From contig JBHPIO010000009.1 of the NCBI GenBank assembly GCA_042568575.1, positions 1-55,225 on the forward strand: a stretch of 55,225 nucleotides of DNA, in the 5' to 3' direction. A program made the translations under genes and the position numbers. Shown piece by piece: positions 19,801-53,945 of this stretch. This stretch comes from Patescibacteria group bacterium. Lineage in GTDB: Bacteria > Patescibacteriota > Gracilibacteria > UBA1369 > PNNO01. The notes beneath the pieces are model-generated. The model was given only the letters and a program-made list of their open reading frames with translations, did not search any database and was not told where the DNA came from. Numbering within the stretch: position 1 is the stretch's first letter; every line of letters starts with the position of its first letter.

Positions 19801-20614
19801 GGTAATTTGATTCAAGTTCTGTGCCTGAATCTATATTAATTCTCGATGTTGCATCATATATATATGTAGAATTTCCAACATCAAGTCGTCCACTAGAAAT
19901 GTCAACTATAGATCCATCTTCTACATATAATTTATTTGCATAATTGTAATTGTAATTATCCCACATATCTAAATCTGAATCGTTAGTGATATCGATGTCA
20001 CCACTAATGCTGAAGTAGTGATCAACCCCAGAGTATGTGTTGCTTCTTGTAAACACCCATCCACCATTCATAATTTTAAGGTCGTGATAAGTGCTTCCGG
20101 TGGTTCTAAGTAAAGCGTCTTTTCCATTAGATCCATTTGTATAGCCGATATAAATGCGTGCACCAGAACCAGTAACAGTGATGTCTCCATCATCTGCGGT
20201 TAATGTTGTTGAACTTGAAGTTCCTCCAACAACCAAGTATCCGCTAACCAAAATATAGTCGTATGTGTATGAACCATTTTGGACATAACAGGTTTGACCA
20301 TAAGGCACCCAAAGTGCTCCAGAAAGTGTTGTTGTGTCACAGCCTCCGGAAAGGCCACGTGTTGCAGCTCCACCGCCACCGCCACCAATAGATGCAGCGC
20401 TTAAACTTGTCTTTTCTTCTCCTGTTCCTTCACCATAAATGATCGCTTCTTCCTCAGGAGTAAGGATAGGACCGTCTGAAATATGTTCGTCGTTTGACAG
20501 GATTTCTGTCTCTGTTGGCTCGCTTTCTGCTTCTGCTTCGAGCGGATTTGCCAAAGCCGCCTGGCTAAATACTAAAATGAGTATCAGCCCAGAAATGATA
20601 GAGAGTTTCTTCAT
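16874..20614 (-). CDS. Large secreted beta-solenoid / adhesin-like protein
   Basis: Signal peptide (..QAALA), Asn/Gly/Asp/Thr-rich imperfect repeats (IDNDG, GGELYN), 1246 aa. Confidence 0.7.
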   Translation of the reverse strand: MKKLSIISGLILILVFSQAALANPLEAEAESEPTETEILSNDEHISDGPILTPEEEAIIYGEGTGEEKTSLSAASIGGGGGGAATRGLSGGCDTTTLSGALWVPYGQTCYVQNGSYTYDYILVSGYLVVGGTSSSTTLTADDGDITVTGSGARIYIGYTNGSNGKDALLRTTGSTYHDLKIMNGGWVFTRSNTYSGVDHYFSISGDIDITNDSDLDMWDNYNYNYANKLYVEDGSIVDISSGRLDVGNSTYIYDATSRINIDSGTELESNYLYMGQSDGSPVGGILNVDGTLDVIYNTHLYDSADLYCDGACASRLWQINDDAQVTNTGTFYQDNASYDLSMQDDSSLTNSGTVYVYGSLLMDDVGSGDSPTLSNTGLLDVNDDITMTDSSHITNGTVLANGTIDVKDDILMENNSQITNYYWIRQGYNGNVDATSTHLKMEDSALFHNADTTSYYYNYDSGSSTYGWAELFDSSEFRNQGNTDLHRLHVGNSVSDISGGTFNNEISGDLDVNQTGTSFNAILLYEGTINNKSGADDFDIDGQIQIEGTATEDGTLINSDNLARASNLYIIDHGILDNNAATFYVDGNGTAANGDITMNDESFIDNDGTLTVSDDLVMYTDAYIDNDGNFEGADVLVMNYGSFIDNHGGLMSFDTSATIYEGSFIENWSGADFETTTLYIGTSSSDPGTFANYGNLDSSTIYLYEDSGVGEEDDQYELLNYSLGYLEGNINIGDATNDGGELYNTAGDGILDGADPADEGIIGDISIYNGGNLYNGANRTGTLANANAEVNWQTTPASDIIIYPGGTVDNYALVGGDEIKDQNGTGTSLFQNHDDGEVESSFIKFQYFGEFNNGSSSETNATVDVDEIILTRYSVYNNYGESTTDELQMGLASQTGGQLDNEEDGNFYVTDTTSGAALIRDGGDINILSGSDAFEVAGQINIYAISTQATLNTSSGAGFTKFGNVTVGQLGLISIASAVEVDDSGGEDANLYIYGDATNEGKIEIVDGVSPTARLLVDGLTTIGDYGHLENNSTYSLTGSALGAFESRDLVTVNATGEISSDADSNFSFLEGIISNGTVDISDDLRTWDNSTSGYSIEVTGGTFTMGSSGATTAEDIMISGDGEMNNSNDTTFDEMFVYNDGEMHNYADIDGVWISVGDAESTAAGGELYNHGAIIDATINLSNSDEEAFKIYRGYTNNASGAEITVGSGDGGITIDGITTDHGIMDDYGTTDANINVGTYGEYNT

Positions 20615-20834: not shown

Positions 20835-20964
20835 ATAAACAACAACCATCCAATAAGGAGGTGAAACATGGACGGATGATTCAAAGTTGCAGAGCAATGA
20901 GTTTGGCAATGTACATGCATTTCGTTGAGCCATGGTGGCTTGGCGAAAAAGGAGAAAACGAAGA

Positions 20965-22008
20965 ATGTTACGTAAGACAACACTTATGGTGGCCGTGATC
21001 GGCCTATTTCTATTTGCCGGCACGGCGAAGGCGGATTTTCCGCCCGCACAGGGTCAAGCTGAAGATGTCGTGCTTTACGACTTTGGCTTGCAAATGCCCG
21101 AGAGCGTGACCACGGACTACTATGGCAACGTGTACGTGGGCCTGTTTATGTCAGGCATGTACGGCGAGATCATGGTGGTGGATCCGGATACGGGCACTTC
21201 ACAGGTTTATGAGCAATTCGACCTTGCTCTTCAGATGTGCGCGCCTGGTCAGGCTGCCGGAGTCGCAGGGATTTGGATTCATCCGTTTACACGGACGATG
21301 TATGCCAACGTGAACACATGCGATCCTGCGACCAAGGGAGTCTACAAGATCCCGAACGACGGAAGCGCACCAGTGTTGCTTTCGACGGCGCCGGTTCCCG
21401 CACTGTTCAACGGCATCGTGAAACGCGGCAACATGCTCTACAGTACGGACTCTTTCTCGATGACTGGAGCCGTGTATGCGACGCCCGTCGATGGGTTCGG
21501 CGCTCCCGCGGAAGTACTCGTAGAGCACCCGCTCATCGCGTTTGACCCGACGATTCTGCCTCCACCTGGTATTCCCTTTATGCCGGGAGCAAACGGCATC
21601 CAGAAGTACCATGGCGATTTGTACATCGGGCATTCCGGGAAGAACATCATCATCAAGGTTCCGCTTTCGGGATACTGCACAGGAATCACGGTTGGCGAGC
21701 CGGTTTGGCACGTGGACGCCCATGGCGTGGACGACTTCGCATTCGACTGGCGCGGCAACATCTATTTCACCAACGATCCCTTCAACGAGTTGATCAAAGT
21801 GACGCCGAACAACGTGTCCACGTTGCTCCTCGATGAGAATGATGGCATTAATGGCTCCACGGCGGCAGCGTTCGGTCGGCTTTGGGACAGAGAAGTTCTG
21901 TTCTTTACCAACGCGGCCTTCCCGTTCATGCCGCCGCCCTACAACAACGGCCAACCGCCGAGTCTGATGGCGTACGGCAACGATATAGGAGGTTATTGGT
22001 TCAGGTAG
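20965..22008 (+). CDS. Secreted SMP-30/gluconolactonase-like beta-propeller protein (GC-rich)
   Basis: Signal peptide (..GTAKA); PESV...GNVYV, FNGIV, GANGIQ, GVDDFAFD..GNIY, TAAAFG blades; SD AAGGAG upstream of ATG 20965. Confidence 0.75.
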   Translation: MLRKTTLMVAVIGLFLFAGTAKADFPPAQGQAEDVVLYDFGLQMPESVTTDYYGNVYVGLFMSGMYGEIMVVDPDTGTSQVYEQFDLALQMCAPGQAAGVAGIWIHPFTRTMYANVNTCDPATKGVYKIPNDGSAPVLLSTAPVPALFNGIVKRGNMLYSTDSFSMTGAVYATPVDGFGAPAEVLVEHPLIAFDPTILPPPGIPFMPGANGIQKYHGDLYIGHSGKNIIIKVPLSGYCTGITVGEPVWHVDAHGVDDFAFDWRGNIYFTNDPFNELIKVTPNNVSTLLLDENDGINGSTAAAFGRLWDREVLFFTNAAFPFMPPPYNNGQPPSLMAYGNDIGGYWFR

Positions 22009-22152: not shown

Positions 22153-23997
22153 CTATCGTGAAACAGTAAAGTAAGTAGGATCTTCGCCATGCAAGATTTG
22201 ACCTTTATAATAGGCATAATTCGCATCTTTTGCGTATAAGCCAGAAATGTATTCAAAGGACGCACTGTCCGCTTCTTCAATTATCACTTCATCATAATAG
22301 GCGTGATCTTTGTCTTTCGCATAATGGTTTATGTATTCCACAAATGAACCTGCGTCGAATTGTTCGGCGATTATGTGATTTTCATAGTTTTTATAAACAT
22401 GATCTTTGTCACGAGAATAATAACTTCCAAGATACTCAAATGTTTCTGGGTCGACTCCTTCAATTATGACGTCATCTTTCATCATTACTAAGCCATTATA
22501 AACATGATCTTTATCTTTATAGTAATATTTGCCAATCAATTCAAACGTTGCTATATCAACATCATCTATTATGCCTCCATGTAGATAAGCATGATTTTTG
22601 TCCCTGGCAAAACCATATTCAAGGTACATGAAACTTCCTAAATCAACATCTTCTATAGGGAAGGCTTCATAAAAAATACTGTTTGCATCTCTAGAGTATC
22701 CAAAACCAAGCACTTCAAAAGTATTTGGGTCAGCGCCAGCAATAAACACGTTTCCAAAATAGACATAGTTGTTATCTTTTGAGTAATGCCAAACTCCGTA
22801 TGTATCAACCACTTCGTAAGAATCCGGATCAGCTTCCTCCATTACTTCTCCCCACATAAATATATGATCTTTATCTTTCGCATATCTAATATAGGTATCC
22901 GATAATGCCTCGAAAGTTTCTGGATCTGCTTCTTCTATTACTGATGCCATTTTTTCAATCATCAGAACATTGTCTTTGTCTGCCACATAAGCTTCTGGAT
23001 AATAAGGAGGAGATGAATGATAAAGAACCTCGAAAGTGATCGGGTCTAGACCATATTCGTCGGTAAGATTGAAATAATCAGTTTCATACGCTTCTCGTTG
23101 AGCTTGGTAAACAGAATTTTTGTCTTTAAAAAACATGCCTTCTACATGCTCAAAAGTAGCTGCATCCACTTCTTCAGCAATTCCAGAAAATGGGTGATAA
23201 ACAGTGTCAGCATCTTTTACAAAAGGATCGCCAAGAACCTCAACGGTTGCAGGATCGATTTCTGGGAGAATAGCTCCGGTTACATTAAACACAGAATTTT
23301 TATCCTTTAAATAAAAGTTTTTCACATACTCAAGTGTATCAAGATCCATTTCGCTTCCAGAAGCAGCAATGCTTTGTTTTACATAATTGTATGTGAACGA
23401 TCTATAAAGAACCTCGGCAACGTATCCACGTGAAGTTGAAGTTCCGTAATCTGTTTCGTTAACAATATTATGCTGTCTTCCGTAGTTCATTGAAGGTCCA
23501 TACCAAGTTGAGTCTTCTTCTGTTTCCCATTCATAAATTCTTGAAAGAACGGTCGAAAGTTCACCTAATTTGATTGGCTCAGCCGGTCCGTAATTTCCTA
23601 CTAATTCTCCATCAGCATATCCACTTACGTAACCTTTCTCTTTTGCCCAACACACGTATGGTGCAAACCATTCGTCTGTTACATCAGGGAAACAATCGTG
23701 GTATTTCGATGATGCAAGATCTCTTTCATTAGAAGCAATTCTAAACATTAAAGTTGCAAACTCAGCTCTGTTAAGTTCATCGTCTGGGCGGTATGTCATC
23801 GAAAAATTGCCGTCTTCGTCTTTTTGATCCATGTCACCAAAAACAACTTCATGTGTTCGAAAATAGTCGATAGCAGTGAAATATTCGTGATCTTTCGGCA
23901 CGTCTTCGAATTTCCATCCACCACCTCCGGCGAGGGCTGCTTGTGGAATTAAGAGTAAAAGTGTGCTTGCAATTAATAAGCGGCTCAAAAATTTCAT
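22153..23997 (-). CDS. SLH-domain surface protein with DKNYY repeats
   Basis: Signal peptide; FEDVP, LNRAEF, FPDV..WFAPYV SLH motifs; many YxKDKxxVY / ADPxTFE repeats. Confidence 0.85.
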   Translation of the reverse strand: MKFLSRLLIASTLLLLIPQAALAGGGGWKFEDVPKDHEYFTAIDYFRTHEVVFGDMDQKDEDGNFSMTYRPDDELNRAEFATLMFRIASNERDLASSKYHDCFPDVTDEWFAPYVCWAKEKGYVSGYADGELVGNYGPAEPIKLGELSTVLSRIYEWETEEDSTWYGPSMNYGRQHNIVNETDYGTSTSRGYVAEVLYRSFTYNYVKQSIAASGSEMDLDTLEYVKNFYLKDKNSVFNVTGAILPEIDPATVEVLGDPFVKDADTVYHPFSGIAEEVDAATFEHVEGMFFKDKNSVYQAQREAYETDYFNLTDEYGLDPITFEVLYHSSPPYYPEAYVADKDNVLMIEKMASVIEEADPETFEALSDTYIRYAKDKDHIFMWGEVMEEADPDSYEVVDTYGVWHYSKDNNYVYFGNVFIAGADPNTFEVLGFGYSRDANSIFYEAFPIEDVDLGSFMYLEYGFARDKNHAYLHGGIIDDVDIATFELIGKYYYKDKDHVYNGLVMMKDDVIIEGVDPETFEYLGSYYSRDKDHVYKNYENHIIAEQFDAGSFVEYINHYAKDKDHAYYDEVIIEEADSASFEYISGLYAKDANYAYYKGQILHGEDPTYFTVSR

Positions 23998-24072
23998 AGT
24001 TTGAAAGTGAATTATATAGTGATCAGATTATAACATGAGTTAAATTTGTAACTATGGGGGAGCCAATTTTGA

Positions 24073-24196
24073 TTGACATTTGCCCGTATTCTGTCGTACG
24101 TTATGACCTCATGCATTGATTTAGCATGAGTTGTACTTTGACAACGCAAGCACCCGCTTTGGCGGGTATGCTTGTCAACGTGGATTTCAAAGTTTT
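24073..24196 (+). promoter_or_regulatory. Promoter and structured leader of GC-rich unit B
   Basis: TTGACA (24073-24078); hairpin CTCATGC/GCATGAG; boxA-like GTACTTTGACAA (24133-24144); hairpin GCAAGCACCCGC/GCGGGTATGCTTGT; 24179-24196 complementary to 27640-27658. Confidence 0.6.
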
Positions 24197-24318
24197 TTAC
24201 ATAATGTGTGATTTTTAAACCCGAGGATTCTGAAGGATTAGAAAGGAGTTTGGGAAAGGCTAGGTAGAGGAAAGAAGAGGATTCTGAACACAAACCCGAA
24301 CTGGAGAGGAAGTGACAC

Positions 24319-26301
24319 GTGCAGTTTGATCGAGACATTGGAATTATTGGTGCTGGCGTTATCGGACATGGCTTGGCCTACCCGATTGCGACGGCTATTG
24401 CGATGAGTGGTGGCAAGGTCATCATTCATGACACCAACCCGGAAGCGCTCGAGCGCGGCATCTCCGGCGCCCTGGGCTATGCGGCCAAGGGCTTGATGCG
24501 AGGCAAGATCTCGAAGAGGACGGCCGACGCCATCAAGCAGGCGATCGTGCCTGCGAAGAGCCTCGAGGACTTCCGCAGCTGTGGTTTGGTCATCGAGGCC
24601 GCCGTGGAGGATCTGAATATCAAAAAACAGATCCTGGCGGGCGTTGAGGAGGTAGTTACGCCGGATTGCCTGATCGGCTTTACGACTTCGGGCCTGTGTC
24701 GGAGCTGGATCGTCGAGGGGGCGAAGCATCCCGACCGGGGATGCGTCATCCACCCCTTCTTCCCGGCCTGGCGGAGCCCGCCGATCGAGGTCGTGGGCGT
24801 GGGCAAGTACTTCAAGCAGATGTACGATCTCATGATCCACCTGGGCAAAGTGCCCATCAAGGTCGCAGACGTTCCCTGTTTCGCGGCGGACCTCATCTTC
24901 TGCTCGTACGAGGCCGAAGCCATTCGGCTCGAGCAGGACGGAGTTGCGACGCGCTATCAGGTGGACCTCATCGCCAACAAGCACATCGGCGGTGGCGGGC
25001 CCTACCTGGTGCACGACCTGACCGGGGGCAACCCGCTCACCATCCACTGCCTGGAGCTCCTGCAGGAGCATCATCAGAGCGAGTGGTTCCAGACGCCCCA
25101 GCTCCTCATCGACCAAGGCACGGAGAAGTGGCTCGAGCATCAGCCTGATCCCGAAAAGGACGCCTACGACGCGGCCACGGAGAAGGCCGTCATGGACCGG
25201 CTACATGCGGTCCTGCTCGGCACCACCTTCCATGCTCTGGACAACGAGCTGTGCGCGCCCGGTGATCTCGACTGGCTCACCAGGATGGCCCTCGGTTTCA
25301 AGACCGGGCTTCTGGAGATGGGCAACAATATGGGTATGGGGCAGGTTCGAGACCTGTGTCAGGCCTACGCCAAGGACAACCCGGGTTTCCCCACGTCGAA
25401 GACGATCGATGGTGGCACGAGCTACCACTTCTTCAAGGACACGACCTGGGAAGTTTCGGAAGACAACGGTATCGCCGTGGTCACTGTTCGCCGTCCGGAG
25501 GCTGCCAACGCTCTGCGGAAGAACGTCATCCAGGAGCTGGATGCGATCTTCTTGGAGCTCGCGGCGGACGATGCCGTCAAGGGCATCATCTTCACCGGCT
25601 TCGGTGGCATGATCGCTGGGGCGGACATCATGGAGCTTGCCTCCCTGAAGACGCCCGCGGAGTGTGCCGAGTTCCCGAGGGAGGGGCAAATGCTCACCCT
25701 CGCCATGGAACAACTGAACAAGCCGATCGTGGCTGTGATCGACGGTGTCGCCTTTGGTGGTGGCGCTGAGATGGCCATGGCCTGCTGGGCACGAGTTCTC
25801 GGTCCCAAAGCTCTCATCGGACAACCCGAGGTGAAGCTCGGAATCGTTCCGGGCTATGGCGGGACCCAACGTCTGCCACGCCTGGTCGGTATGGAGCGCT
25901 CTCTCGAGATGCTTCGTCTCGGCAATCCCATCAAGGCAACGACTGCCGTCGAGTGGGGCTGGGCGAGCAAGTGCTCGCCCGATCCCATGAGGGAGGCCGA
26001 GTTGATGATCCGAAATCACTGTGATCCGGACAACGACTTCGTCCTCGAACCGCTATCCCACGATCCCATGAAGCAAGTTCCGATCGAGATCCCTGAGCTC
26101 GACATCGGGCATCTGAGCCTGGTGATCGATCGCATCCTGTTGGACACGGTGTTCGAAGGATTGGGGTTGACCATGGAGCATGGTCTCGAGTTTGAAGCCA
26201 ACGCCTGCGGCCGGTGCAAGGAAACCCAGGACATGGGTATCGGCATGGCCAACTTCATCCAGAACAAGGGCAAGGCGCCTGCCGTGTTCGTCAACAAATA
26301 G
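24319..26301 (+). CDS. 3-hydroxyacyl-CoA dehydrogenase / enoyl-CoA hydratase fusion (GC-rich)
   Basis: GIIGAGVIG Rossmann, VIEAAVEDL, HPFFP....IEVV; C-terminal crotonase GGGAE...GQPEVKLGIVPGYGGTQRLPRLVG; GTG start after GGAGAGGA. Confidence 0.9.
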   Translation: MQFDRDIGIIGAGVIGHGLAYPIATAIAMSGGKVIIHDTNPEALERGISGALGYAAKGLMRGKISKRTADAIKQAIVPAKSLEDFRSCGLVIEAAVEDLNIKKQILAGVEEVVTPDCLIGFTTSGLCRSWIVEGAKHPDRGCVIHPFFPAWRSPPIEVVGVGKYFKQMYDLMIHLGKVPIKVADVPCFAADLIFCSYEAEAIRLEQDGVATRYQVDLIANKHIGGGGPYLVHDLTGGNPLTIHCLELLQEHHQSEWFQTPQLLIDQGTEKWLEHQPDPEKDAYDAATEKAVMDRLHAVLLGTTFHALDNELCAPGDLDWLTRMALGFKTGLLEMGNNMGMGQVRDLCQAYAKDNPGFPTSKTIDGGTSYHFFKDTTWEVSEDNGIAVVTVRRPEAANALRKNVIQELDAIFLELAADDAVKGIIFTGFGGMIAGADIMELASLKTPAECAEFPREGQMLTLAMEQLNKPIVAVIDGVAFGGGAEMAMACWARVLGPKALIGQPEVKLGIVPGYGGTQRLPRLVGMERSLEMLRLGNPIKATTAVEWGWASKCSPDPMREAELMIRNHCDPDNDFVLEPLSHDPMKQVPIEIPELDIGHLSLVIDRILLDTVFEGLGLTMEHGLEFEANACGRCKETQDMGIGMANFIQNKGKAPAVFVNK

Positions 26302-26315
26302 ACAAGGGGGACATC

Positions 26316-27611
26316 ATGGAGAGACTACAGAAGCTCCTTCAAGAAGATCCGATCGTCATCGTCGGCGAACCCAAGCGCCTTCCGCGCGCCGACATCCTCG
26401 AGAACAACAAGGCCCCCGGCCTGTTCTCACACTTCACCACCAACCAGCTCGGTGGACTCGCACTCGCGGCCACTCTCAAGGCCACTCCTCAGATCGAGCC
26501 ATCCATGCTCGGCCATGTGGTGATGGGGAGAGCGGATCATGCCCACCGGGACTGCATCTACGGCGCCCGTGGCATGGCCCTGGAAGCCGGCATTCCGCAT
26601 GACGTGCCCGCTTGCACCGTGCAGCGCATCTGTGCAAGCGGTGTTCAAGGCATCATTACGGCTACAACCCAGGTGGTTGTTGGCGACCATCTTCCGGGAC
26701 GACCATATGTCGCGGCTGGCGGAGCCGAGTCCATGCAGTATCCGCACAAGCTGCCTGGTATGCGCGGACGCAAAGTGGGTGGTGCCACCGTCAAGTTCGG
26801 CCCGATTGACGCGAGCAAGCTCCCCAAGGGGACGTATCTCCAGGACGCGATGTTCATGGGGCTCTTCGATCCTCGCGCCGGCATGGCCATGGCCAACACG
26901 GCCGAAGAGCTGGCTCGCCGGTTCAACATCACACGGGAGCAGGCGGACGTGTTCGCCCATCGCTCTCACAAGCTGGCCATCACTGCCCGTGACAACGGAT
27001 ATTTCGACGACGAAATCGAGCCGGTCACCAACCTGCACGGCGACATCGTCGAGAACGACACTCACATCCTAGATGACATCTCCATGGGTGGGCTGGCCGG
27101 TCTACGCGTGGCCTTCGAAGAGGGCGGTATCATTACTCCCGGCAACGCCTCCGCAGTCGTGGACGGTGCGGCAGCAATGATCATGTGCCCGCTGTCCGCC
27201 GCCGACGAAGTCGGCGCCAAACCCATCGCTCGCATCGTGAGCTGGGGTATCGCCGGCTGTGATCCCAAGATAATGGGCTGGGGTCCGGTTCCCTCCACGC
27301 GCTTCGCGTTGGAAAACGCCGGACTCAAGGGCAACGACATCAGCACGGTGGAGCTCAACGAAGCCTTTGCACCGCAGGCCCTCGCCTGCATCATGGACTT
27401 CGAGAAGGAGTTCGGCATCGATCCCGAGAAGGTCAACCCGATGGGCAACGCTATCGCCATGGGCCATCCCCTCGGCGCCACCGGTGCCATCCTCACCGTC
27501 ACTGCCGCCCACCGCATGCGCAGACTCAATCAGCGCTACGGCCTCATCACCATGTGCGTCGGAGGAGGACAAGGTGTCTCGCTCATCATCGAGAACGCCG
27601 AGTTCATGTAG
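26316..27611 (+). CDS. Thiolase (acetyl-CoA C-acyltransferase) (GC-rich)
   Basis: RICASG, NEAFA, GHPLGATG, TMCVGGGQG; start set at ATG 26316 after AAGGGGG. Confidence 0.92.
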   Translation: MERLQKLLQEDPIVIVGEPKRLPRADILENNKAPGLFSHFTTNQLGGLALAATLKATPQIEPSMLGHVVMGRADHAHRDCIYGARGMALEAGIPHDVPACTVQRICASGVQGIITATTQVVVGDHLPGRPYVAAGGAESMQYPHKLPGMRGRKVGGATVKFGPIDASKLPKGTYLQDAMFMGLFDPRAGMAMANTAEELARRFNITREQADVFAHRSHKLAITARDNGYFDDEIEPVTNLHGDIVENDTHILDDISMGGLAGLRVAFEEGGIITPGNASAVVDGAAAMIMCPLSAADEVGAKPIARIVSWGIAGCDPKIMGWGPVPSTRFALENAGLKGNDISTVELNEAFAPQALACIMDFEKEFGIDPEKVNPMGNAIAMGHPLGATGAILTVTAAHRMRRLNQRYGLITMCVGGGQGVSLIIENAEFM

Positions 27612-27639
27612 GCGCATAAGCGCGCCGGGCTTCCCCCTC

Positions 27640-27778
27640 AAAACTTTGAACATCCACGGACATCAAAACGTGATTGATTACGTTTTCCACACCGCACTTC
27701 TAGAGACGTTCGTGGATGAACGCAGTTACACACACCTTTTAGGAGGCCTGGCGCACTGATTTTGCGCGAGGCCTCTTT
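27640..27778 (+). terminator. Structured trailer and terminator of unit B
   Basis: 27640-27658 pairs with the leader; local stems 27651-27661/27708-27718 and 27665-27674/27677-27686; terminal hairpin GAGGCCT..AGGCCTC-TTT (27743-27778). Confidence 0.6.
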
Positions 27779-27793
27779 CCCCTATCCAAAATT

Positions 27794-27837
27794 CCTCCCG
27801 GGAGGAGCTTGACAAATCCCTGCAATATGCGTAAATT
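27794..27837 (+). promoter_or_regulatory. Palindrome CCTCCCGGGAGG next to a sigma70 promoter
   Basis: CCTCCCGGGAGGAGCTTGAC (27794-27813) is identical to 53902-53921; TTGACA-17-TAAATT. Confidence 0.65.
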
Positions 27838-27975
27838 CTATATCCATGGCGTTGCGGGCATTTAGATTTGCTCAAGGTGTTCCGTAATGTCTGAAAATTG
27901 ACATTACGTTTTCGCTTTTAAACGCTAAACAACAAACGGGGCTTTAGTCCCTACAGATATGAAGGAGAACTTTCA

Positions 27976-29211
27976 ATGGCTGAACACACACACAAACAAC
28001 TGTTCCCATGGGGCTTTCTAGGTTCAATGGTTCTGATGTCGCTGCTTCTGATCGTTATGAGATATGGAAGCGACAAGTTCGCGTTTGTGGACTACTACGA
28101 CTACCACCACGCGGCAGAGCTGATTCGCAATGGCGAGAGCCCGTACGATGGTCCCAAGGCAGACGAACTCGCAAAGCGCGATAAAGTCCACGCGATCAAG
28201 GACAGCCACTACATCTACCCGCCTCCGCTTGCGATCGTCTTGGTGCCGCTCTCCTACCTGCATCCGAAAAACGGAGGCATGTTCTGGCATCTGTTGAGCG
28301 CAATTATGCTTCTGCTTGCCTTGGAACGCCTCACGAGATATTCGCAGACCAAGAGGCAGGAACTACTCATATTGCTATCCTTCTTTTTCGTTCCGACACT
28401 GTTCACTCTTTATGTCGGACAGGTGAACACCATCGTTCTTGCCTTAATTGTCTTGGCGATGGACGACTCACTGAGCAAAGAAAACCGTGATATTCGCGTT
28501 GGCGTATGGATCGGTCTTGCTGCGCTCATCAAGGTGAGTCCGATCCTGTTGCTCGCCGTATTTCTCTTTCGGGGAAAATGGCGGGTCATTCTGGTCTCCG
28601 TCGCGGTTGTTGCGGTTGGCTTTGCTATCAGCGAGCTGATCGTCCGAGGCAGCACTTCGCAGTTCTTCAACGACGTGATGCCCTCGTTGTGGCACAACCA
28701 GAACCACCACGCGCACCCGGCAAACCAGTCGTTCCGCGGCTGGATCCTTCGCCTCTTCACCCCAAACGATTGGACGAATCCGGTGCGGAATTACTCCGAG
28801 ACGATTTACATGTTCGTTGGCTCGATCAACGCCTTTATCGTTTGCATCACTATGTTGATGCTCTGGATTTCCAGGAAATCAGACTTCACAAGGAGGCAAG
28901 CCTATCTGGAAGCGGGCCTGGTCGTATCGTGCATCGTTCTGATCTCGCCCCTCGGGTGGGATCACACTTTCATCCTACTCCTCATTCCAGCAGCAGCGCT
29001 CTGGCGCATCGGCTACCACTGGCTGGTGATCGCCATGTATGGCCTCATGATCGTGCAGCGCGCGATCTTCATCCCGTTCGCCGACAATCCCTCAAGCTTC
29101 CCCTTCCTCGCGAAGCATCCAGTACTGTCCTGCAGCGGACTGCTGGGTGGTTGGTTCATCTTCTTCACCTGTGCCCATATTCTGGGTGACGTCAAAAAAA
29201 GCAAAACGTAA
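27976..29211 (+). CDS. GT87/DUF2029 (GT-C) membrane glycosyltransferase (GC-rich)
   Basis: DY..Y...A...G.SPY, YIYPP, GQVN, GLAALIKVSP, NQS, SPLGWDH; SD AAGGAG. Confidence 0.88.
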   Translation: MAEHTHKQLFPWGFLGSMVLMSLLLIVMRYGSDKFAFVDYYDYHHAAELIRNGESPYDGPKADELAKRDKVHAIKDSHYIYPPPLAIVLVPLSYLHPKNGGMFWHLLSAIMLLLALERLTRYSQTKRQELLILLSFFFVPTLFTLYVGQVNTIVLALIVLAMDDSLSKENRDIRVGVWIGLAALIKVSPILLLAVFLFRGKWRVILVSVAVVAVGFAISELIVRGSTSQFFNDVMPSLWHNQNHHAHPANQSFRGWILRLFTPNDWTNPVRNYSETIYMFVGSINAFIVCITMLMLWISRKSDFTRRQAYLEAGLVVSCIVLISPLGWDHTFILLLIPAAALWRIGYHWLVIAMYGLMIVQRAIFIPFADNPSSFPFLAKHPVLSCSGLLGGWFIFFTCAHILGDVKKSKT

Positions 29212-29260: not shown

Positions 29261-30562
29261 CTACATTTCTGCCGCATACCATTCTGCAGAATCAACAATT
29301 ACATCTCCAATAAAATGTGTGAAGTGCAGATGCGATCCAGTTGCAATTCCTGTTGATCCCATCAACCCAATCAAGTCACCTTTATTAACAACTTGTCCTT
29401 CCTCAACTTTTAACGCGGACATATGAAGGTACATCGTGAACACGTTATGACCATGATCAATTATGATCGTATTACCATATGACATTGTTTCATCCGCCAA
29501 TGTCACAATTCCACTGTTGGAAGCGTAAATTTCAGTTCCTTCAACATTCCCATAATCAAGCCCAAAATGAGATCCTGAATATGCTCCGTTTATATATAAC
29601 TTGTCTCCAAATCCAAGAGTAATAACACCTTCTGTTGGAACAATAAATTCACCTTCCCAAAGCTGTTCCTCGCGTGGGTTACTTTTTGCAGCGTTAATCA
29701 TTGTCCAAGTATTGTCTTGTTGCGTCTGCCCAAATAGCTCAGTTTTTGTTTCCGGAAGCGTGAACGAAACAACCGTATAATTTTGTTCACCCACATCAAT
29801 CGTCACCTCAACCTGCTCAGACTCATCTTTGTTAAGCGTTAAACTCAGCGTTTTCGCGCCAGCATCTTTAGTCCGATGCAAGCCAACAAACGCTCGCAAA
29901 TAATCTTTTTCTCCAATTTGCGTAAACTCTTCAAGTTCCGCAGCTCTCGTAATCACAATCTGGGCTTCATCAAAATTAATATTTCGATCCGGTCTCATAA
30001 AACCATCTGGGTATCCTTTAAAAATCTCAGCCTTCATGGTTTGATTTATATATTCATAAAAACGATGATCTTCAGGGACGTCTTCAAACGAAGGGACGTC
30101 TTCTAATTTCTCCAAAGGATCGAATGCTCGCACAAGAATTTTCGCAATTTGACCTCTTGTTATTGGAGTGTATGGACGAAACTTGCCGTCCTCGTATCCA
30201 TGAATTATATCGAGCGCGGAAGCTTTGCTCACATATTGATAGAACGGATTCCCCGCTGGTACATCAGGGAATTGCGTAGCTTGAAAAGTATCAACATCTC
30301 CAAAATCTTCATTATCAAACATTAATTTTAAGAATTCTCCACGATTTATGGTCTCATCCCAATTCGGCGCATCAACGACTTCGTAAAATTTAACAATCTT
30401 TCCATTAAAAGAAGCATTCACCGATTCGATGTCGTCTTTGGCAATTTTAATCTCCAAGGTTTTGCCCTGCAAAATTTCATCCTCTACATAAACGCTCGCC
30501 GCATTCGCAGAAAACGGAATCAAAAATATCCCAATACCTACAATGATTTTTACGATTTTCAT
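29261..30562 (-). CDS. SLH-domain M23 peptidase
   Basis: SLH repeats (FPDVP, GYEDGKFRP, ITRGQ); HFGLD, YLHMS, TGSHLHF. Confidence 0.9.
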   Translation of the reverse strand: MKIVKIIVGIGIFLIPFSANAASVYVEDEILQGKTLEIKIAKDDIESVNASFNGKIVKFYEVVDAPNWDETINRGEFLKLMFDNEDFGDVDTFQATQFPDVPAGNPFYQYVSKASALDIIHGYEDGKFRPYTPITRGQIAKILVRAFDPLEKLEDVPSFEDVPEDHRFYEYINQTMKAEIFKGYPDGFMRPDRNINFDEAQIVITRAAELEEFTQIGEKDYLRAFVGLHRTKDAGAKTLSLTLNKDESEQVEVTIDVGEQNYTVVSFTLPETKTELFGQTQQDNTWTMINAAKSNPREEQLWEGEFIVPTEGVITLGFGDKLYINGAYSGSHFGLDYGNVEGTEIYASNSGIVTLADETMSYGNTIIIDHGHNVFTMYLHMSALKVEEGQVVNKGDLIGLMGSTGIATGSHLHFTHFIGDVIVDSAEWYAAEM

Positions 30563-30642: not shown

Positions 30643-32931
30643 ATGAGCACATTATTTAAATTCTTAACATATCAATCTATGAGAAAGTATCTCATTCTCG
30701 CGCTATTCTTAGTATTAGCCGTGAGTCAAATTTCGTTTGCGTCTTTTAACGATGTAAACTCAAACACTGATTATGAAACGGCTATCAGTTGGATGGCGGA
30801 TAACGGTGTTATTCAAGGGTATCCTGACGGGACATTTGGTCCTGATGTTTGTGTGAATAGAGTTGAAATGCTCAAAATGCTCTATTTAGCAACAGAAACA
30901 AATGTTAACGATCTAGCTGCTGGAGCTGGTTGGGCAGACTATTTTTCTGACGTTGATACCGATCAGTGGTATTGGCCATACCTCCGATTTGCTTTGCAGC
31001 AAGGCACTGTTGAAGGTTATCCGGATCAAACTTTTAAACCTAATCAGTGTGTGAATAGAGTTGAAGCTATTAAAATGGCAACTCTAGAATACAACGGTGG
31101 AAATCTACCTGTGGCTCAGGACCAACCTAATATGCCATACGATGCGTTGGCTGACCAATGGTATTATGGTTATCTCGAATATGTAATGTATGCGAATACT
31201 CTTGGGCAAAACCATACTGAAGTTACAGAAACTGGATATAACTTTTTCCCTGGCGATTCAATGACTCGTAAAGAAGTTGCCGAAATGCTTTACAGAATGA
31301 AAGCAATTCAAGATAGCAATGTATCTGTTTATGCGGACGGAATGGCTCCAGCTGCAATCGTAGACGCGGTTACATTCACAGGAATTACTTCTTTGTATAC
31401 TGATTCAATAATGGAAGATTACATTGATGATGTTGTTGCAGCTTACGGAGATGGAACAAGTGATTGGTCATACGTTCGAGGATTTTTTGAGTGGTACGAA
31501 GTTGGTGAAATTAACGTTGCGCCATACGAAGGATACAAGCTACTTGTTTTAGACAGCCTTTGTGATGGAATGTGTTTGTCATCGTACCTATATAGATTTG
31601 CATATAACGAAGATACTGGAGACCTTGTTATGTTAGATCGACATTCATCGTCTTCTTATACTCCAAGTTATGTAGAGCCACTTACAGTTGGTAAAGACAC
31701 AACAACATTACTTGCAGGGCTAAAATTACCTGAAACTATAGCTATTGCTGGAACTGATGCTTACATAACAAAGGTTACTGACGACGATTGGTATAACAAT
31801 GATGACAATTTAACTACTGTTGCATTTGTTGATCCTGTTGTGGGGAACGTTTACTATTATGGTGATGGAACATCTGCGGGATGTCTTTATGTTAAGAGTC
31901 CTGATGGTTCAGTAAGTACTTATGGATACGATCTTACATTATTGGAAGAAGCAGGTGTGACAATTGATTTTGAAGATGGAAGCGGGTCTGTTGTGGCTTC
32001 TGATAGTTATGGTTTAACTACCGGAGGATGCGGACTTGCAGGAAGTTGTTATTTTATTAGAGATATTGAGTTAGGCGATTTGGTACTAGCTGGAGTTTCT
32101 TCTAACGGAGTAAGTTTATACGAAGTGGCTGATCCTGTAGAAGGCATTTACGGAGAGGACACTGCCGGTTATAACGAAGCACAGGTTGAAGTAGATCAGG
32201 TTTATCAATTCTACGTTGGTCAATATAGTTATAGAGATGATTTAGAAGGATTAACTCCTCCAACTTTTGAAGAATTTCTAGACGATTATCCAGTTCTTTA
32301 CTGGCAAGATCCATTTGGAAGATGGAGCTCAATTACTGGTAGCACTTATAAAATCCCTGCAGAATGCGGAAAGCCGGTTGTTTATCTTTATCCAGAAGAA
32401 GCGACTGACGTTCATGTAGAAGTTGATATCGACGAGTTCACAGTTACTATTCCAGACTACGGAAAAGACGGATGGACTGTTAGAGCACAACCTGACGGAT
32501 CGCTTTACAACTATGCTGACGGAGAAGAATATCCATACCTTTTCTGGGAAGGTCACAAGAAAGATGGACTAACTACAGATCAAGGGTCCATGGTTGCAAA
32601 AGAAGATCTTGAAGAGTTCTTTACTAAGAACCTTGCTAAAATGGGACTAAATAAACAGGAAAGTGCAGACTTCATGGAATTCTGGGTTCCTGTAATGAAA
32701 GAAGATCCTGAAAATTATTTCTTTGTTAGCTTTATTGGAACACACGATTTTAATAAAGTTGCTCCACTAACTGTTGAGCCAAAACCGGATACAGTTATTA
32801 GAGTGTTCATGTATTATCATCCAACTTACAGACCGTTTGAGGTTCAGGAACAGAAATTATCAACAATCCCTAGAGATGGCTTCACAGTCATCGAATGGGG
32901 AGGAACATCATCAAGAACATGGAGAAGATAA
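30643..32931 (+). CDS. SLH-domain surface protein with C-terminal KPVVYLYP domain
   Basis: Three SLH repeats; CGKPVVYLYPE...YPYLFWEG...EWGG; start may be 30679. Confidence 0.8.
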   Translation: MSTLFKFLTYQSMRKYLILALFLVLAVSQISFASFNDVNSNTDYETAISWMADNGVIQGYPDGTFGPDVCVNRVEMLKMLYLATETNVNDLAAGAGWADYFSDVDTDQWYWPYLRFALQQGTVEGYPDQTFKPNQCVNRVEAIKMATLEYNGGNLPVAQDQPNMPYDALADQWYYGYLEYVMYANTLGQNHTEVTETGYNFFPGDSMTRKEVAEMLYRMKAIQDSNVSVYADGMAPAAIVDAVTFTGITSLYTDSIMEDYIDDVVAAYGDGTSDWSYVRGFFEWYEVGEINVAPYEGYKLLVLDSLCDGMCLSSYLYRFAYNEDTGDLVMLDRHSSSSYTPSYVEPLTVGKDTTTLLAGLKLPETIAIAGTDAYITKVTDDDWYNNDDNLTTVAFVDPVVGNVYYYGDGTSAGCLYVKSPDGSVSTYGYDLTLLEEAGVTIDFEDGSGSVVASDSYGLTTGGCGLAGSCYFIRDIELGDLVLAGVSSNGVSLYEVADPVEGIYGEDTAGYNEAQVEVDQVYQFYVGQYSYRDDLEGLTPPTFEEFLDDYPVLYWQDPFGRWSSITGSTYKIPAECGKPVVYLYPEEATDVHVEVDIDEFTVTIPDYGKDGWTVRAQPDGSLYNYADGEEYPYLFWEGHKKDGLTTDQGSMVAKEDLEEFFTKNLAKMGLNKQESADFMEFWVPVMKEDPENYFFVSFIGTHDFNKVAPLTVEPKPDTVIRVFMYYHPTYRPFEVQEQKLSTIPRDGFTVIEWGGTSSRTWRR

Positions 32932-34659: not shown

Positions 34660-34782
34660 GATTTAATGTTAAAAGTAGGTGATTTTTATACCAAATAACG
34701 TCAAGATATGCAAATAATTTTGAATCGAGGAAACTTCTGATATAATTTTTCCGAGGGCGCTTATTTATTAAAGCTTGAATTT

Positions 34783-39079: not shown

Positions 39080-39212
39080 TGGGTTTGTTTAGGGTTATGG
39101 TGCAGAGAAATTCTATCTACAATACCTAATGATGTAAAGAAATTTGATATAAAAATCTAAGGGGGAACGGGACGGTAGGGTGAAAGGAGTGTCCCAAAGG
39201 AGGTGGATATGG

Positions 39213-39917
39213 CTAGCCGCGCTGGAGGGCGAGTGTGATGCTCAAGACGGCGTTCTCGGCTGAGCGAACAGTGTCTCCCTTATGCTGAATTGTGCTGAAT
39301 GCTCCGAGGAATTCTGGGCATAAACGCATGTCTTCTATGGCTTCCCCTGTGAGGACTTCGATGAATGGCACGGGTTCGTTGAGTGCGCTGAGTACTCTTT
39401 CTACCTCTGAGGGGTGGTTGATGAGCAAAGCCGGCAGGAATTTGTATGCGGCTGGGTCAGCCTGCATTTTGGCTGCGAGCTTTGCCGTTGCTTTCCATAG
39501 ATTTGTTGTTCGACTTGTTGAGTCTATCCTCCCGGCGATGTAACCCATTTCGACTGCAAGGAGCATGAACGCATCCCACCATTCGCACAAATGCTTTCGC
39601 ATTGCTCCAGTGAATGGAATACCCATCTCTGTGAGCCAGGTTGTGAATGGGAATTTTTTTATCACTTCGAGAAGCTTTGGGAGTTGTTCTGCCCTCTCCT
39701 CAGAGAAGGCGGAATGTGTCATCCCAATCTCAAATCCATCAAGTATAAGCTTGAACTGCTCGCCACCGATGGTGACGAGCAGTCGCTCCATAGCTTTCAT
39801 GAGCTCCGGAACCTCCAGTCCTTGTAGGGCGGTTCCTATATCTTCAATCGTCAGAGATTTCCCTCCAACACTAATCTGGATTGCTTCGCGAATAAGACTC
39901 TTGGTATCGCTGGTCAT
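39213..39917 (-). CDS. Hypothetical protein (GC-richer unit D)
   Basis: Open frame; start set at ATG 39917 after AGAAAGGA; no family recognised. Confidence 0.65.
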   Translation of the reverse strand: MTSDTKSLIREAIQISVGGKSLTIEDIGTALQGLEVPELMKAMERLLVTIGGEQFKLILDGFEIGMTHSAFSEERAEQLPKLLEVIKKFPFTTWLTEMGIPFTGAMRKHLCEWWDAFMLLAVEMGYIAGRIDSTSRTTNLWKATAKLAAKMQADPAAYKFLPALLINHPSEVERVLSALNEPVPFIEVLTGEAIEDMRLCPEFLGAFSTIQHKGDTVRSAENAVLSITLALQRG

Positions 39918-39982
39918 TGTGTGGATCCTTTCTGTTTGGCACGCACAGCAACTATAACAAGTGCTATGTGTGACGTGTTTTA

Positions 39983-40021
39983 TACCGTCCCACCTCAAAT
40001 TTTTAAAATATGTCAAAGATC
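39983..40021 (-). promoter_or_regulatory. Leader of unit D: boxA-like motif and 5' arm of long-range stem
   Basis: GATCTTTGACA (40011-40021 minus), then GGTGGGACGGTA (39983-39994 minus), complementary to 39166-39177. Confidence 0.5.
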
Positions 40022-40056
40022 GTGAAAGACTATATTCTCCCACTATCTCAAGAATG

Positions 40057-41114: not shown

Positions 41115-41281
41115 CGGCTTTTCTATTTCATATATAATTTATAAGTCTTTTGTCGAATATAGCAATAAAAGGCTGTGTCGCGTTTGTACAAATTGTCATA
41201 CGTGGCATATTTGGTCTTTGAAAGGTAACAAGTTTATACAACGCAGCGTGGGTGTTTTCCCACAGAAAGCAGGCATCGATT

Positions 41282-53851: not shown

Positions 53852-53945
53852 GCCTCCCCGGGGAGGCGTGATCTCAAAGCGCTTAATGAAGTTTTTATAT
53901 CCCTCCCGGGAGGAGCTTGACTAATTTGTAAAAACAGTTTATATT
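53852..53945. repeat. REP-like palindrome pair, second copy next to a promoter
   Basis: GCCTCCCCGGGGAGGC (53852-53867), CCTCCCGGGAGG (53902-53913), then TTGACT-17-TATATT. Confidence 0.65.

What the first reader, a model, noticed from the sequence alone, without database searches (positions are those of the whole stretch)
24179..27658. Unit B: 18-bp stem closing a 3.4-kb two-gene operon, with a competing local helix
Seen: CGTGGATTTCAAAGTTTT (24179-24196) versus the reverse complement of 27640-27658, CGTGGATGTTCAAAGTTTT: 18 Watson-Crick pairs and one bulged base, enclosing both genes. Part of the 3' arm (27651-27661) can instead pair locally with 27708-27718. Inference: mutually exclusive folds, so closure may be switchable. 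This is the strongest single case.
Basis: seen in the sequence. Interest (0 to 1): 0.8.

Follow-up and report, generated by a model that had tools for sequence, protein, structure and literature searches.

The report
Inverted repeat around a foreign fatty-acid operon
An 18-base inverted repeat really does bracket a GC-rich, horizontally acquired two-gene fatty-acid-oxidation operon in a small AT-rich candidate-phyla-radiation genome, but it is about as likely to be a coincidence as a working RNA clasp.

Summary
24179-24196 and 27640-27658 are complementary at 18 positions with one bulged base (27651). The 3' arm can instead pair locally with 27708-27718.

**Statistics.** The match is uncommon but not compelling.
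- 3 of 5000 dinucleotide shuffles of the two flanks reach its score.
- It ranks 4th of 923 flank pairs in the 1.2-Mb genome. The three above it lie in real repeats or tRNA-like sequence.
- Shuffled genomes give 0.5 such pairs each.
- The repeat is not a family, has no copies elsewhere, and no relative carries the operon, so conservation cannot be tested.

**What it encloses.** The repeat brackets a 61% GC operon (3-hydroxyacyl-CoA dehydrogenase/enoyl-CoA hydratase fusion plus thiolase) in a 38% GC Peregrinibacteria-like genome. This is one of about 30 GC-rich foreign genes in that genome.

**Folding.** An equilibrium fold of a hypothetical full transcript contains the closing stem, favoured by 7.3 kcal/mol over the local fold. 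Neither state touches the ribosome-binding site or the terminator-like hairpin, so no output of a "switch" is visible.

**Enrichment.** A weak excess of flanking repeats around GC-rich genes (3 of 25 against 9 of 355) was not reproduced in a sister genome (0 of 15).

**Verdict.** Fortuitous, non-functional repeat, about 0.45. Insertion scar, 5'/3'-UTR helix and recombinase site remain open.

The parts
24179..24196 (+). 5' arm of the inverted repeat (CGTGGATTTCAAAGTTTT), 123 nt upstream of the GTG start. It is unpaired in the local fold of the leader.
27640..27658 (+). 3' arm (AAAACTTTGAACATCCACG, with 27651 bulged). It starts 29 nt after the stop codon, exactly where GC falls from 75% (27612-27639) to host level.
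27705..27727 (+). Local competitor of the 3' arm. The core helix pairs 27708-27718 with 27651-27661; outer pairs join 27724-27727 with 27642-27645.
   Evidence: (I3)
24138..24178 (+). Stable hairpin that abuts the 5' arm (TTGACAA...TTGTCAA stem with an inner ACCCGC/GCGGGT stem).
24197..24318 (+). Purine-rich leader, 42% GC, with a 12-nt direct repeat GAGGATTCTGAA at 24223-24234 and 24277-24288, and a GGAGAGGAAG ribosome-binding region.
24319..26301 (+). Gene 1: 660-aa fusion of 3-hydroxyacyl-CoA dehydrogenase (N-terminal) and enoyl-CoA hydratase (C-terminal). GC 0.61, GC3 0.79.
26316..27611 (+). Gene 2: thiolase (acetyl-CoA C-acyltransferase). The ATG at 26316 is inferred to be the start, because the longest frame (from 26214) overlaps gene 1. 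GC 0.62.
27665..27686 (+). 9-bp hairpin nested inside the local 3' structure.
27741..27777 (+). Strong terminator-like hairpin (9+5 pairs) without a clear U tract. It is unchanged whether the long-range or the local helix forms.

Best explanation
**The real biological object** is a recently acquired, GC-rich beta-oxidation gene pair. It consists of a 3-hydroxyacyl-CoA dehydrogenase/enoyl-CoA hydratase fusion plus a thiolase, sitting in a small, AT-rich, Peregrinibacteria-like (candidate phyla radiation) genome. It is embedded between two unusually long, structure-rich, host-like intergenic regions.

**The inverted repeat** of 18 pairs plus one bulge that brackets the operon is most likely a fortuitous match between those two flanks, with no dedicated function.

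**Structures that probably matter.** I infer, but have not shown, that these are the local ones:
- the hairpins in the 5' leader;
- a composite 3'-UTR structure (27642-27727), in which the 3' arm is one strand;
- a terminator-like hairpin (27741-27777).

**If both arms are on one RNA,** the stem would form at equilibrium, but that would be a by-product.

**Shown:** the repeat, its statistics, the foreign nature of the genes, and the predicted folds. **Inferred:** lack of function.
For: - **Chance level.** A score of 32 is reached by 3 of 5000 shuffles of this pair. Over all 923 flank pairs of the genome, shuffles give 0.5 such pairs, and 12 of 30 shuffled sets have at least one. One unexplained case per genome is therefore expected about a third of the time.
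- **Heavier tails in real sequence.** Real intergenic DNA here has heavier tails than shuffles: 12 of 380 units have P<0.01 against 3.8 expected.
- **A non-RNA control.** Another repeat in the window (15 of 16 positions, P 0.0014) brackets six genes on both strands.
- **No family.** The arm has no further copy in the genome (control pattern similar). Among 70 metagenome matches, none has two arms and none is related to the window.
- **No mobility or recombination partner.** No match in the genome (82% complete) to the Resolvase, Y1_Tnp, rve or DDE_Tnp_1 families. The four tyrosine recombinases all lie on other contigs.
- **Sharp edges.** There is no similarity beyond 25 nt.
- **Enrichment not replicated.** The excess of flanking repeats around GC-rich units in this genome (3 of 25 against 9 of 355, Fisher P 0.037) was not reproduced in the sister genome G006 (0 of 15 against 13 of 447).
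- **Recent acquisition.** The genes are 61% GC against a genome mean of 38%. They were not found in 12 other genomes of the family, including the same genus. The best homologue among 5.8 billion proteins is 51% identical.
- **Strong local 3' fold.** MFE -66.5 kcal/mol, z -4.9, 0 of 200 shuffles as stable.
Against: - The per-pair probability is low (about 7e-4). This is the best-scoring flank pair in the genome that is not explained by a repeat region or tRNA-like sequence.
- The 3' arm starts exactly where the GC-rich foreign block ends, which a random match need not do.
- A second GC-rich gene (contig C1, 11953-13770) is bracketed by a perfect 14-nt repeat, TGTGGATGTCTAAA. It shares GTGGATGT..AAA with these arms and has a similar layout: the 5' arm lies about 107 nt before the start, the 3' arm lies at the stop, and a long hairpin sits just 5' of the 5' arm. 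Only 6 of 379 other units share any 8-mer with these arms.
- In equilibrium folding the long-range stem is in the MFE and is favoured by 7.3 kcal/mol.
Confidence: 0.45

Rival explanations
1. **Scar of the DNA insertion event.** The arms mark the boundaries of the inserted segment. Either they are short terminal inverted repeats of a non-autonomous carrier, or they are the two halves of a host palindrome into whose centre the foreign DNA was inserted. On this reading the repeat has a duplicative or structural DNA origin and no RNA role.
For: - The repeat is perfect Watson-Crick with no G-U pairs and has sharp edges.
- The 3' arm abuts the end of the 75% GC tail of the foreign block.
- The locus is lineage-specific and hence recent.
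- A second GC-rich gene has a repeat with a shared core and a similar layout.
- Flanking repeats are weakly enriched around GC-rich units in this genome.
Against: - There is no target-site duplication next to either arm (inspection).
- No match to any of the three transposase families searched, nor to the Resolvase (serine recombinase) family.
- The arms have no other copy.
- No unoccupied GTGGAT...ATCCAC palindrome lies in any intergenic region of the genome.
- The 5' arm lies 123 nt outside the GC-rich block, separated from it by a 42% GC leader.
- The leaders of the two units are unrelated (no shared flank motif).
- The enrichment was not replicated in G006.
Confidence: 0.2
2. **Functional long-range RNA helix.** The 5' and 3' UTRs of the operon mRNA pair into an 18- to 22-bp duplex. 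The duplex either protects the transcript or creates an RNase III substrate, and it competes with the local 3' helix.
For: - The stem is in the MFE of the modelled full transcript and is favoured by 7.3 kcal/mol.
- Pair probabilities are 0.73-1.0 in a two-strand model of the UTRs.
- The 5' arm is free in the leader fold and stacks on a hairpin.
- No consensus promoter lies between the 5' arm and the start codon, and no consensus terminator lies before the 3' arm.
- RNase III is encoded at C3:28826-29221.
- There is a precedent: a 14-bp 5'/3'-UTR interaction in B. subtilis hbs mRNA (PMC5737220, abstract read).
Against: - There is no transcript, probing or covariation evidence.
- The helix overlaps neither the ribosome-binding site nor the terminator-like hairpin.
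- It has no G-U pairs.
- It would span 3.4 kb of translated RNA, far longer than the hbs case.
- The local partner is transcribed only about 50 nt after the 3' arm, and the local fold is itself highly significant (z -4.9).
- The operon is too recent for such a helix to have been built by selection.
- A comparable repeat in the window cannot be RNA.
Confidence: 0.15
3. **Protein-recognition sites on DNA.** The arms, together with the third CGTGGATG copy at 27710-27717, are sites for a site-specific recombinase that inverts the promoter-less operon segment (phase variation), or for a regulator that loops the DNA.
For: - Inverted sites bracket the leader plus both genes, while candidate promoters lie outside them.
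- The CGTGGAT core occurs three times in the two flanks.
- A second unit has a repeat with the same core, as expected for one recombinase with several targets.
- Four tyrosine recombinases are encoded in the genome.
Against: - No recombinase lies on this contig, and two of the four are probably XerC/D-like (inference).
- The contig assembled through both arms in one orientation.
- One arm carries an indel.
- The core motif GTGGATGT is not enriched in intergenic DNA: 5 of 42 copies are intergenic, where about 4.6 are expected.
- No read data were available.
Confidence: 0.1

Closest known systems
5'/3'-UTR long-range interaction in Bacillus subtilis hbs mRNA (Braun, Durand and Condon 2017, PMC5737220; abstract read)
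   Same: [quoted passage not shown] It is of similar length: 14 bp there, 18 bp plus a bulge here.
   Different: - The hbs helix overlaps an RNase Y cleavage site and was shown by mutation.
- Here nothing is shown experimentally, and the helix overlaps no recognisable site.
- The arms are 3.4 kb apart across two genes, against one short gene in hbs.
icaR 5'-3' UTR pairing in Staphylococcus aureus (PMC3868564; only the title and the start of the abstract were seen in the listing; the mechanistic details are recalled)
   Same: A 3'-UTR segment pairs with the 5' UTR of the same mRNA. RNase III is involved (recalled).
   Different: In icaR the 3' UTR masks the Shine-Dalgarno region (recalled). Here the 5' arm ends 108 nt upstream of the ribosome-binding region at 24304-24313.
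RNase III processing stems that bracket rRNA genes in rRNA operons (recalled textbook knowledge, not tested)
   Same: Sequences several kilobases apart, flanking the functional unit, pair into a long duplex that closes the unit.
   Different: Those stems are conserved, usually longer, and flank stable RNAs. Here the unit is a translated, foreign two-gene mRNA, and conservation cannot be tested.
Terminal inverted repeats of insertion sequences, and inverted repeats of invertible DNA segments (recalled general knowledge)
   Same: A short, sharply bounded, perfect inverted repeat brackets a discrete DNA segment of foreign composition.
   Different: There is no transposase, no target duplication, no further copies, no adjacent recombinase and no evidence of a second orientation.
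Bacterial beta-oxidation operons encoding a bifunctional dehydrogenase/hydratase and a thiolase (FadB/FadA-type; the domain order matches the 3-hydroxyacyl-CoA dehydrogenase/enoyl-CoA hydratase family named by sources)
   Same: The Pfam domains 3HCDH_N, 3HCDH and ECH_1 in gene 1, and Thiolase_N and Thiolase_C in gene 2, with the genes adjacent and 14 nt apart.
   Different: - The protein scores far below the NCBIfam FadB and FadJ equivalog cut-offs (229 bits against 870), and the domain order is reversed relative to FadB.
- The operon sits in a 1.2-Mb CPR genome.
- The best relatives are only about 50% identical.

Membership tests
5'/3'-UTR interaction within one bacterial mRNA (hbs / icaR type) | Extended complementarity between a 5'-UTR and a 3'-UTR segment | tested here: met
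   There are 18 pairs plus one bulge, with a duplex energy of -25.0 kcal/mol. The helix is present in the modelled whole-transcript MFE.
5'/3'-UTR interaction within one bacterial mRNA (hbs / icaR type) | Both arms lie on the same transcript | not testable with these tools
   No sequencing run was listed. The consensus scan finds no promoter between 24197 and 24318 and no terminator before 27640, which is only weak support.
5'/3'-UTR interaction within one bacterial mRNA (hbs / icaR type) | The helix overlaps a functional site (ribosome-binding site or nuclease cleavage site) | tested here: not met
   The 5' arm ends at 24196, while the ribosome-binding region is at 24304-24313. The terminator-like hairpin 27741-27777 is unaffected by closure. 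Nuclease sites are unknown.
5'/3'-UTR interaction within one bacterial mRNA (hbs / icaR type) | Conservation or covariation of the two arms in relatives | not testable with these tools
   No relative carries the operon or the arms.
RNase III processing stem closing an operon | A double-stranded segment of about two helical turns, and the enzyme present | tested here: inconclusive
   The helix has 18 bp with one bulge, or 22 bp with two bulges. An RNase III gene is present at C3:28826-29221. Cleavage cannot be tested.
Insertion sequence or transposon with terminal inverted repeats | A transposase in the element or elsewhere in the genome | tested here: not met
   Only two metabolic genes lie between the arms. 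The genome, 82% complete, has no match to Y1_Tnp, rve or DDE_Tnp_1.
Insertion sequence or transposon with terminal inverted repeats | A target-site duplication, and further copies of the ends | tested here: not met
   The bases outside the arms differ. The genome has no other copy of the arm at up to 3 mismatches beyond the control level, and none was found by blastn-short.
Invertible DNA segment (inverton) | A site-specific recombinase nearby, and both orientations present in the population | tested here: inconclusive
   There is no serine recombinase. The four tyrosine recombinases are all on other contigs. Orientation in reads is not testable.
REP / RAYT-type palindromic repeats | Many genomic copies and a Y1 transposase-like gene | tested here: not met
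   The pair is single and G000 has no PF01797 match. A RAYT-like ORF with its own flanking repeats exists in the sister genome G006, but with an unrelated sequence.
Beta-oxidation dehydrogenase/hydratase plus thiolase operon | The domain content of both proteins, and their adjacency | tested here: met
   - Gene 1 matches Pfam 3HCDH_N (1e-31) and ECH_1 (1e-39).
- Gene 2 matches Thiolase_N (1e-48) and Thiolase_C (5e-41).
- Gene 2 scores 338 bits against NCBIfam TIGR01930, above the 240.55-bit cut-off.
- No equivalog-level cut-off is met for FadB or FadJ.

The most novel reading that the evidence does not exclude
In this candidate-phyla-radiation lineage, individually acquired GC-rich foreign genes are bracketed by short inverted repeats with a shared GTGGATGT..AAA core. 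There are two cases in this genome: this operon, and C1:11953-13770. In each, the 5' arm lies about 110-120 nt before the start, next to a long hairpin, and the 3' arm lies at the end of the foreign block.

The repeats would act in one of two ways. They could be the recognition or insertion sites of an unknown cassette-capture or inversion system. Or they could act as 5'-3' mRNA clasps that control the stability or RNase III processing of foreign transcripts.
Probability: 0.15. Interest if true: 0.65.

Novelty: not a real feature. Interest (0 to 1): 0.3.

Why it matters
**If the repeat were functional,** it would be either of two things:
- the first long-range 5'/3'-UTR clasp spanning a whole two-gene operon, and the first in the candidate phyla radiation;
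- a mark of how these tiny genomes take in and control single foreign genes.

**As it stands,** the value of the work is mostly negative. The repeat is real, but it sits at the level that a 1.2-Mb genome yields by chance about one time in three, and the apparent enrichment around foreign genes did not replicate.

**The solid result** is the context. A Peregrinibacteria-like genome carries a foreign, GC-rich beta-oxidation gene pair, together with about 30 other GC-rich genes. Each has a compositional boundary at or near the ends of its reading frame. That is unusual metabolism for this group and worth following up in its own right.

Tried and rejected
- **Repeat family.** The arm was searched in the window, in the genome at up to 3 mismatches and with blastn-short. 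There were no further copies, so this was rejected.
- **Known RNA family.** Rfam at gathering threshold over the window and at E<=1 on both flanks gave only one meaningless snoRNA hit at E 0.36. There are no tRNAs.
- **Conservation.**
  - DNA search in 40 relatives.
  - Protein search in 13 genomes of the family.
  - Genome-contig scan: one 41% relative in a Kerfeldbacteria MAG, whose neighbouring gene is not a thiolase.
  - 5.8-billion-protein search: best hit 51% identical.
  - Metagenome scan for the arm pattern: 70 single chance hits, none related to the window.
  - No comparative test was therefore possible.
- **Empty site.** The neighbouring SLH-domain protein has 16-26 paralogous matches in each of the five family genomes searched and no clear orthologue, so this route was abandoned.
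- **Shared motif among flanks of GC-rich genes.** There was no excess over the flanks of low-GC genes.
- **Unoccupied palindromes of the arm type.** None lies in intergenic DNA.
- **Longer degraded inverted duplication.** None was found.
- **The 108-aa reverse-strand ORF 24012-24338 that covers the 5' arm.** I judged it spurious from its composition; it was not searched.
- **The C1 unit protein.** It is an orphan, found in 0 of 120 genomes of the order, with no Pfam match.
- **Sequencing runs.** No RNA holder and no DNA holder was listed for 23900-28000.
- **Literature.** Search for GC-rich transfers in Peregrinibacteria: six papers were listed and none was obviously relevant (listing only). 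I make no claim that the matter is unpublished.

Full report
**1.

- The window reads CGTGGATTTCAAAGTTTT at 24179-24196 and AAAACTTTGAACATCCACG at 27640-27658. That is 18 Watson-Crick pairs with base 27651 bulged.
- A gapped alignment lengthens the match to 24173-24196 against 27640-27662, at the cost of a second, 2-nt bulge. Beyond that the complementarity falls to 8 to 14 of 40 positions, close to the roughly 10 of 40 expected by chance, both outward and inward.
27651-27661 pairs with 27708-27718 in 11 pairs, one of them G-U. Further outer pairs join 27642-27645 with 27724-27727.

**2. What lies between the arms**

- Gene 24319-26301 encodes a 660-aa fusion of 3-hydroxyacyl-CoA dehydrogenase and enoyl-CoA hydratase. 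The next frame encodes a thiolase (Pfam and NCBIfam).
- The thiolase's longest frame starts at 26214 and overlaps gene 1. The ATG at 26316, 14 nt after the stop of gene 1, is the likely start (inference).
- Both genes are about 61% GC, with GC3 of 0.73-0.79. The genome's long ORFs average 38% GC with sd 4%.
- GC rises at the start codon and stays at 75% through a 28-nt tail after the stop. It falls to host level exactly where the 3' arm begins.
- The 122-nt leader between the 5' arm and the start is 42% GC and purine-rich. It holds a 12-nt direct repeat.

**3. The host and the foreign origin of the operon**

- The assembly holds 1.2 Mb in 31 contigs and is 82% complete.
- A housekeeping ABC-F protein in the window is 76-83% identical to proteins that sources name "Patescibacteria group" and "Candidatus Peregrinibacteria".
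- The operon's DNA was not found in 40 relatives.
- Its first protein was not found in the 12 other genomes of the family, including the same genus at 97% completeness. The only exception is one weak, partial 26% match.
- Among 5.8 billion proteins the best match is 51% identical. The named matches come from Planctomycetota, Acidobacteria, Polyangium, Proteobacteria and Bacteroidales.
- The operon is therefore a lineage-specific acquisition from an unidentified GC-rich donor.
- It is not alone. 33 of 959 long ORFs in the genome have GC of at least 0.48, scattered over many contigs. They include an enoyl-CoA hydratase with a zinc dehydrogenase, an OPT transporter, three DUF4215 proteins, the GT87 glycosyltransferase next door at 27976-29211, and many orphans.
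- The complete sister genome G006 shows the same bimodal GC pattern.

**4. Is the repeat more than chance?**

- For this pair of flanks (321 and 364 nt), 3 of 5000 dinucleotide shuffles reach score 32. In a second run 0 of 400 did, giving a Gumbel P of 7e-4.
- I took every gap between ORFs of at least 120 aa and paired gaps up to three apart. 4 of 923 pairs reach 32.
- The other three are explained. One is a tRNA-like sequence beside two tyrosine recombinases on C2, and two lie in a repeat region on C12.
- Shuffling all 923 pairs gives 0.5 pairs of at least 32 per genome, and 12 of 30 shuffled sets have at least one.
- The repeat is thus the best unexplained one in the genome, yet one such case is not surprising at genome scale. 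At the scale of the window (51 pairs) it corresponds to roughly 0.03.
- Real intergenic DNA also has heavier tails than shuffles: 12 of 380 units have P<0.01 against 3.8 expected.
- A repeat of similar rarity in the same window (34681-34696 / 39142-39157, 15 of 16 positions, P 0.0014) brackets six genes on both strands and so cannot be an RNA stem.

**5. A possible pattern that did not replicate**

- Among 25 GC-rich units of the genome, 3 have flanking repeats with P<0.01, against 9 of 355 low-GC units (Fisher one-sided P 0.037).
- The second of the three, C1:11953-13770, encodes an orphan proline-rich protein. It has a perfect 14-nt repeat, TGTGGATGTCTAAA, that shares GTGGATGT..AAA with the arms studied here.
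- Its layout is similar too. The 5' arm lies 107 nt before the start and directly follows a long hairpin. The 3' arm lies directly after the stop.
- Only 6 of 379 other units share any 8-mer with these arms.
- Against a real pattern:
  - the leaders of the two units are unrelated;
  - the flanks of GC-rich genes share no more motifs than other flanks;
  - GTGGATGT is not enriched in intergenic DNA, with 5 of 42 copies intergenic;
  - no unoccupied palindrome of this type exists;
  - in G006, analysed in the same way, 0 of 15 GC-rich units have P<0.01, against 13 of 447 others.
- I therefore treat the pattern as a lead, not a finding.

**6. Folding**

- The leader 24030-24330 folds no better than its shuffles (z -1.3). 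It leaves the 5' arm unpaired, directly 3' of a stable hairpin at 24138-24178.
- The 3' region 27600-27800 folds far better than its shuffles (-66.5 kcal/mol, z -4.9, 0 of 200). In that fold the 3' arm is paired locally, a 9-bp hairpin is nested inside, and a strong terminator-like hairpin lies at 27741-27777.
- As isolated duplexes, the long-range helix scores -25.0 kcal/mol and the local one -22.9.
- Freeing the 3' arm from its local fold costs 11.6 kcal/mol. Freeing the 5' arm costs 2.8.
- Forbidding the 5' arm to pair gives -1589.2 and restores the local helix.
- In a two-strand model of the UTRs, the closing pairs have probabilities of 0.73-1.0.
- At equilibrium the closure would therefore win by about 7 kcal/mol. 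The model ignores ribosomes, co-transcriptional order and the entropy of a 3.4-kb loop.
- Neither state changes the ribosome-binding region or the terminator-like hairpin. A "switch" would have no read-out other than the presence of a duplex.
- An RNase III gene is present.

**7. DNA-level alternatives**

- No match in the assembly to the Resolvase (serine recombinase) family or to the Y1_Tnp, rve and DDE_Tnp_1 transposase families.
- The four tyrosine recombinases lie on other contigs.
- There is no target-site duplication and no second copy of the ends.
- The sharp edges, the all-Watson-Crick pairing, the position of the 3' arm at the compositional boundary, and the youth of the locus all argue the same way. 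If the repeat is not chance, it arose by a DNA event rather than by selection on RNA (inference).

**8. Comparison with known systems**

- The nearest functional analogue is the 14-bp 5'/3'-UTR interaction of B. subtilis hbs mRNA, which modulates RNase Y cleavage (PMC5737220, abstract read).
- A second analogue is the icaR 5'-3' UTR pairing in S. aureus (PMC3868564; only the listing was seen, and the details are recalled).
- The present case meets the complementarity criterion. It does not meet overlap with a ribosome-binding site. Co-transcription and conservation cannot be tested.
- As a transposon, an inverton or a REP element, it fails the partner-enzyme and copy-number criteria that I could test.

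**9. Verdict**

- The sequence observation is confirmed, and the two folds are indeed mutually exclusive in silico.
- My best reading, at 0.45, is a fortuitous, non-functional inverted repeat between two long flanks of a recently acquired foreign operon.
- The rivals are an insertion scar (0.2), a functional 5'/3'-UTR helix (0.15) and recombinase or regulator sites (0.1).
- Interest is modest at 0.3. The most novel reading not excluded is a shared-core repeat system around foreign genes in this lineage (probability about 0.15).

Noticed in passing
window 27794-27814 and 53902-53922; also G000 C12:91263, C12:95759, C23:57636, C23:112855, C29:48304, C1:131555, C1:140335, C3:15421: A palindrome fused to a -35 box, CCTCCCGGGAGGAG(C)TTGACA, recurs at about 10 places in the 1.2-Mb genome. 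Here it precedes a TTGACA-17-TAAATT promoter-like site upstream of the GT87 gene. It may be a regulator site, or a terminator/promoter module typical of this organism.
   Followed up: partly
whole genome G000 (e.g. window 20932-22008, 24319-27611, 27976-29211, 39213-40043, 41252-41743) and G006: About 3% of long ORFs (33 of 959) have GC of at least 0.48 in a 38% GC genome. For the operon studied here, the GC shift falls at the start codon and 28 nt after the stop. They are single genes or pairs scattered over many contigs: a beta-oxidation pair, ECH plus Zn-ADH, OPT, DUF4215 (three), GT87 and many orphans. The sister genome G006 shows the same pattern. This suggests repeated single-gene uptake from GC-rich donors by this CPR family.
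   Followed up: partly
G000 C1:11939-11952 and 13877-13890 (locus L092): A perfect 14-nt inverted repeat, TGTGGATGTCTAAA, brackets an orphan 605-aa proline-rich GC-rich gene. It shares GTGGATGT..AAA with the arms studied here. Both of its UTRs fold far better than shuffles (z -4.7 and -5.1).
   Followed up: partly
window 34681-34696 and 39142-39157: A 15-of-16 inverted repeat (P about 0.0014) brackets six genes on both strands: a Na/H exchanger, a lipoprotein, a cyclophilin, a flavin reductase, DHFR and ThyA. It is possibly a pair of inward-facing promoter-like sequences.
   Followed up: partly
window 24223-24234 and 24277-24288: An exact 12-nt direct repeat, GAGGATTCTGAA, occurs twice in the purine-rich leader of the operon, 54 nt apart. 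0 of 100 shuffles of the window give two copies.
   Followed up: no
G000 C2:13193-15370 and C2:15773-21478: Two adjacent tyrosine recombinase genes sit next to a 5-kb segment bracketed by a 25-nt inverted match. The match looks like a tRNA 3' end (AAATGGAGCC..GGGATTTGA). This is possibly an integrated element or two opposed tRNA genes.
   Followed up: no
G006 C1:1347421-1348004: A 140-aa ORF carries a PNHFHFLI motif, which from memory resembles a Y1 (IS200/RAYT-like) transposase; it was not scanned against Pfam. It is bracketed by 30-nt inverted repeats built from GTTACTTAGTA units. This looks like a REP/RAYT-like element in the sister genome. No PF01797 match was found in G000.
   Followed up: no
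L008 6001-7968 (Kerfeldbacteria MAG contig): The only genome contigs relative of gene 1 (41% identity) is also in a CPR genome. It too is GC-elevated relative to its surroundings (65% against about 52%). This hints at independent uptake of this enzyme by CPR lineages.
   Followed up: no
window 16874-20614, 22153-23997, 29261-30562, 30643-32931: The GC-rich genes are interleaved with large host-composition genes for SLH-domain surface proteins (DKNYY, M23 peptidase). Each of the five family genomes searched gave 16-26 matches to the SLH-domain protein 22153-23997.
   Followed up: partly
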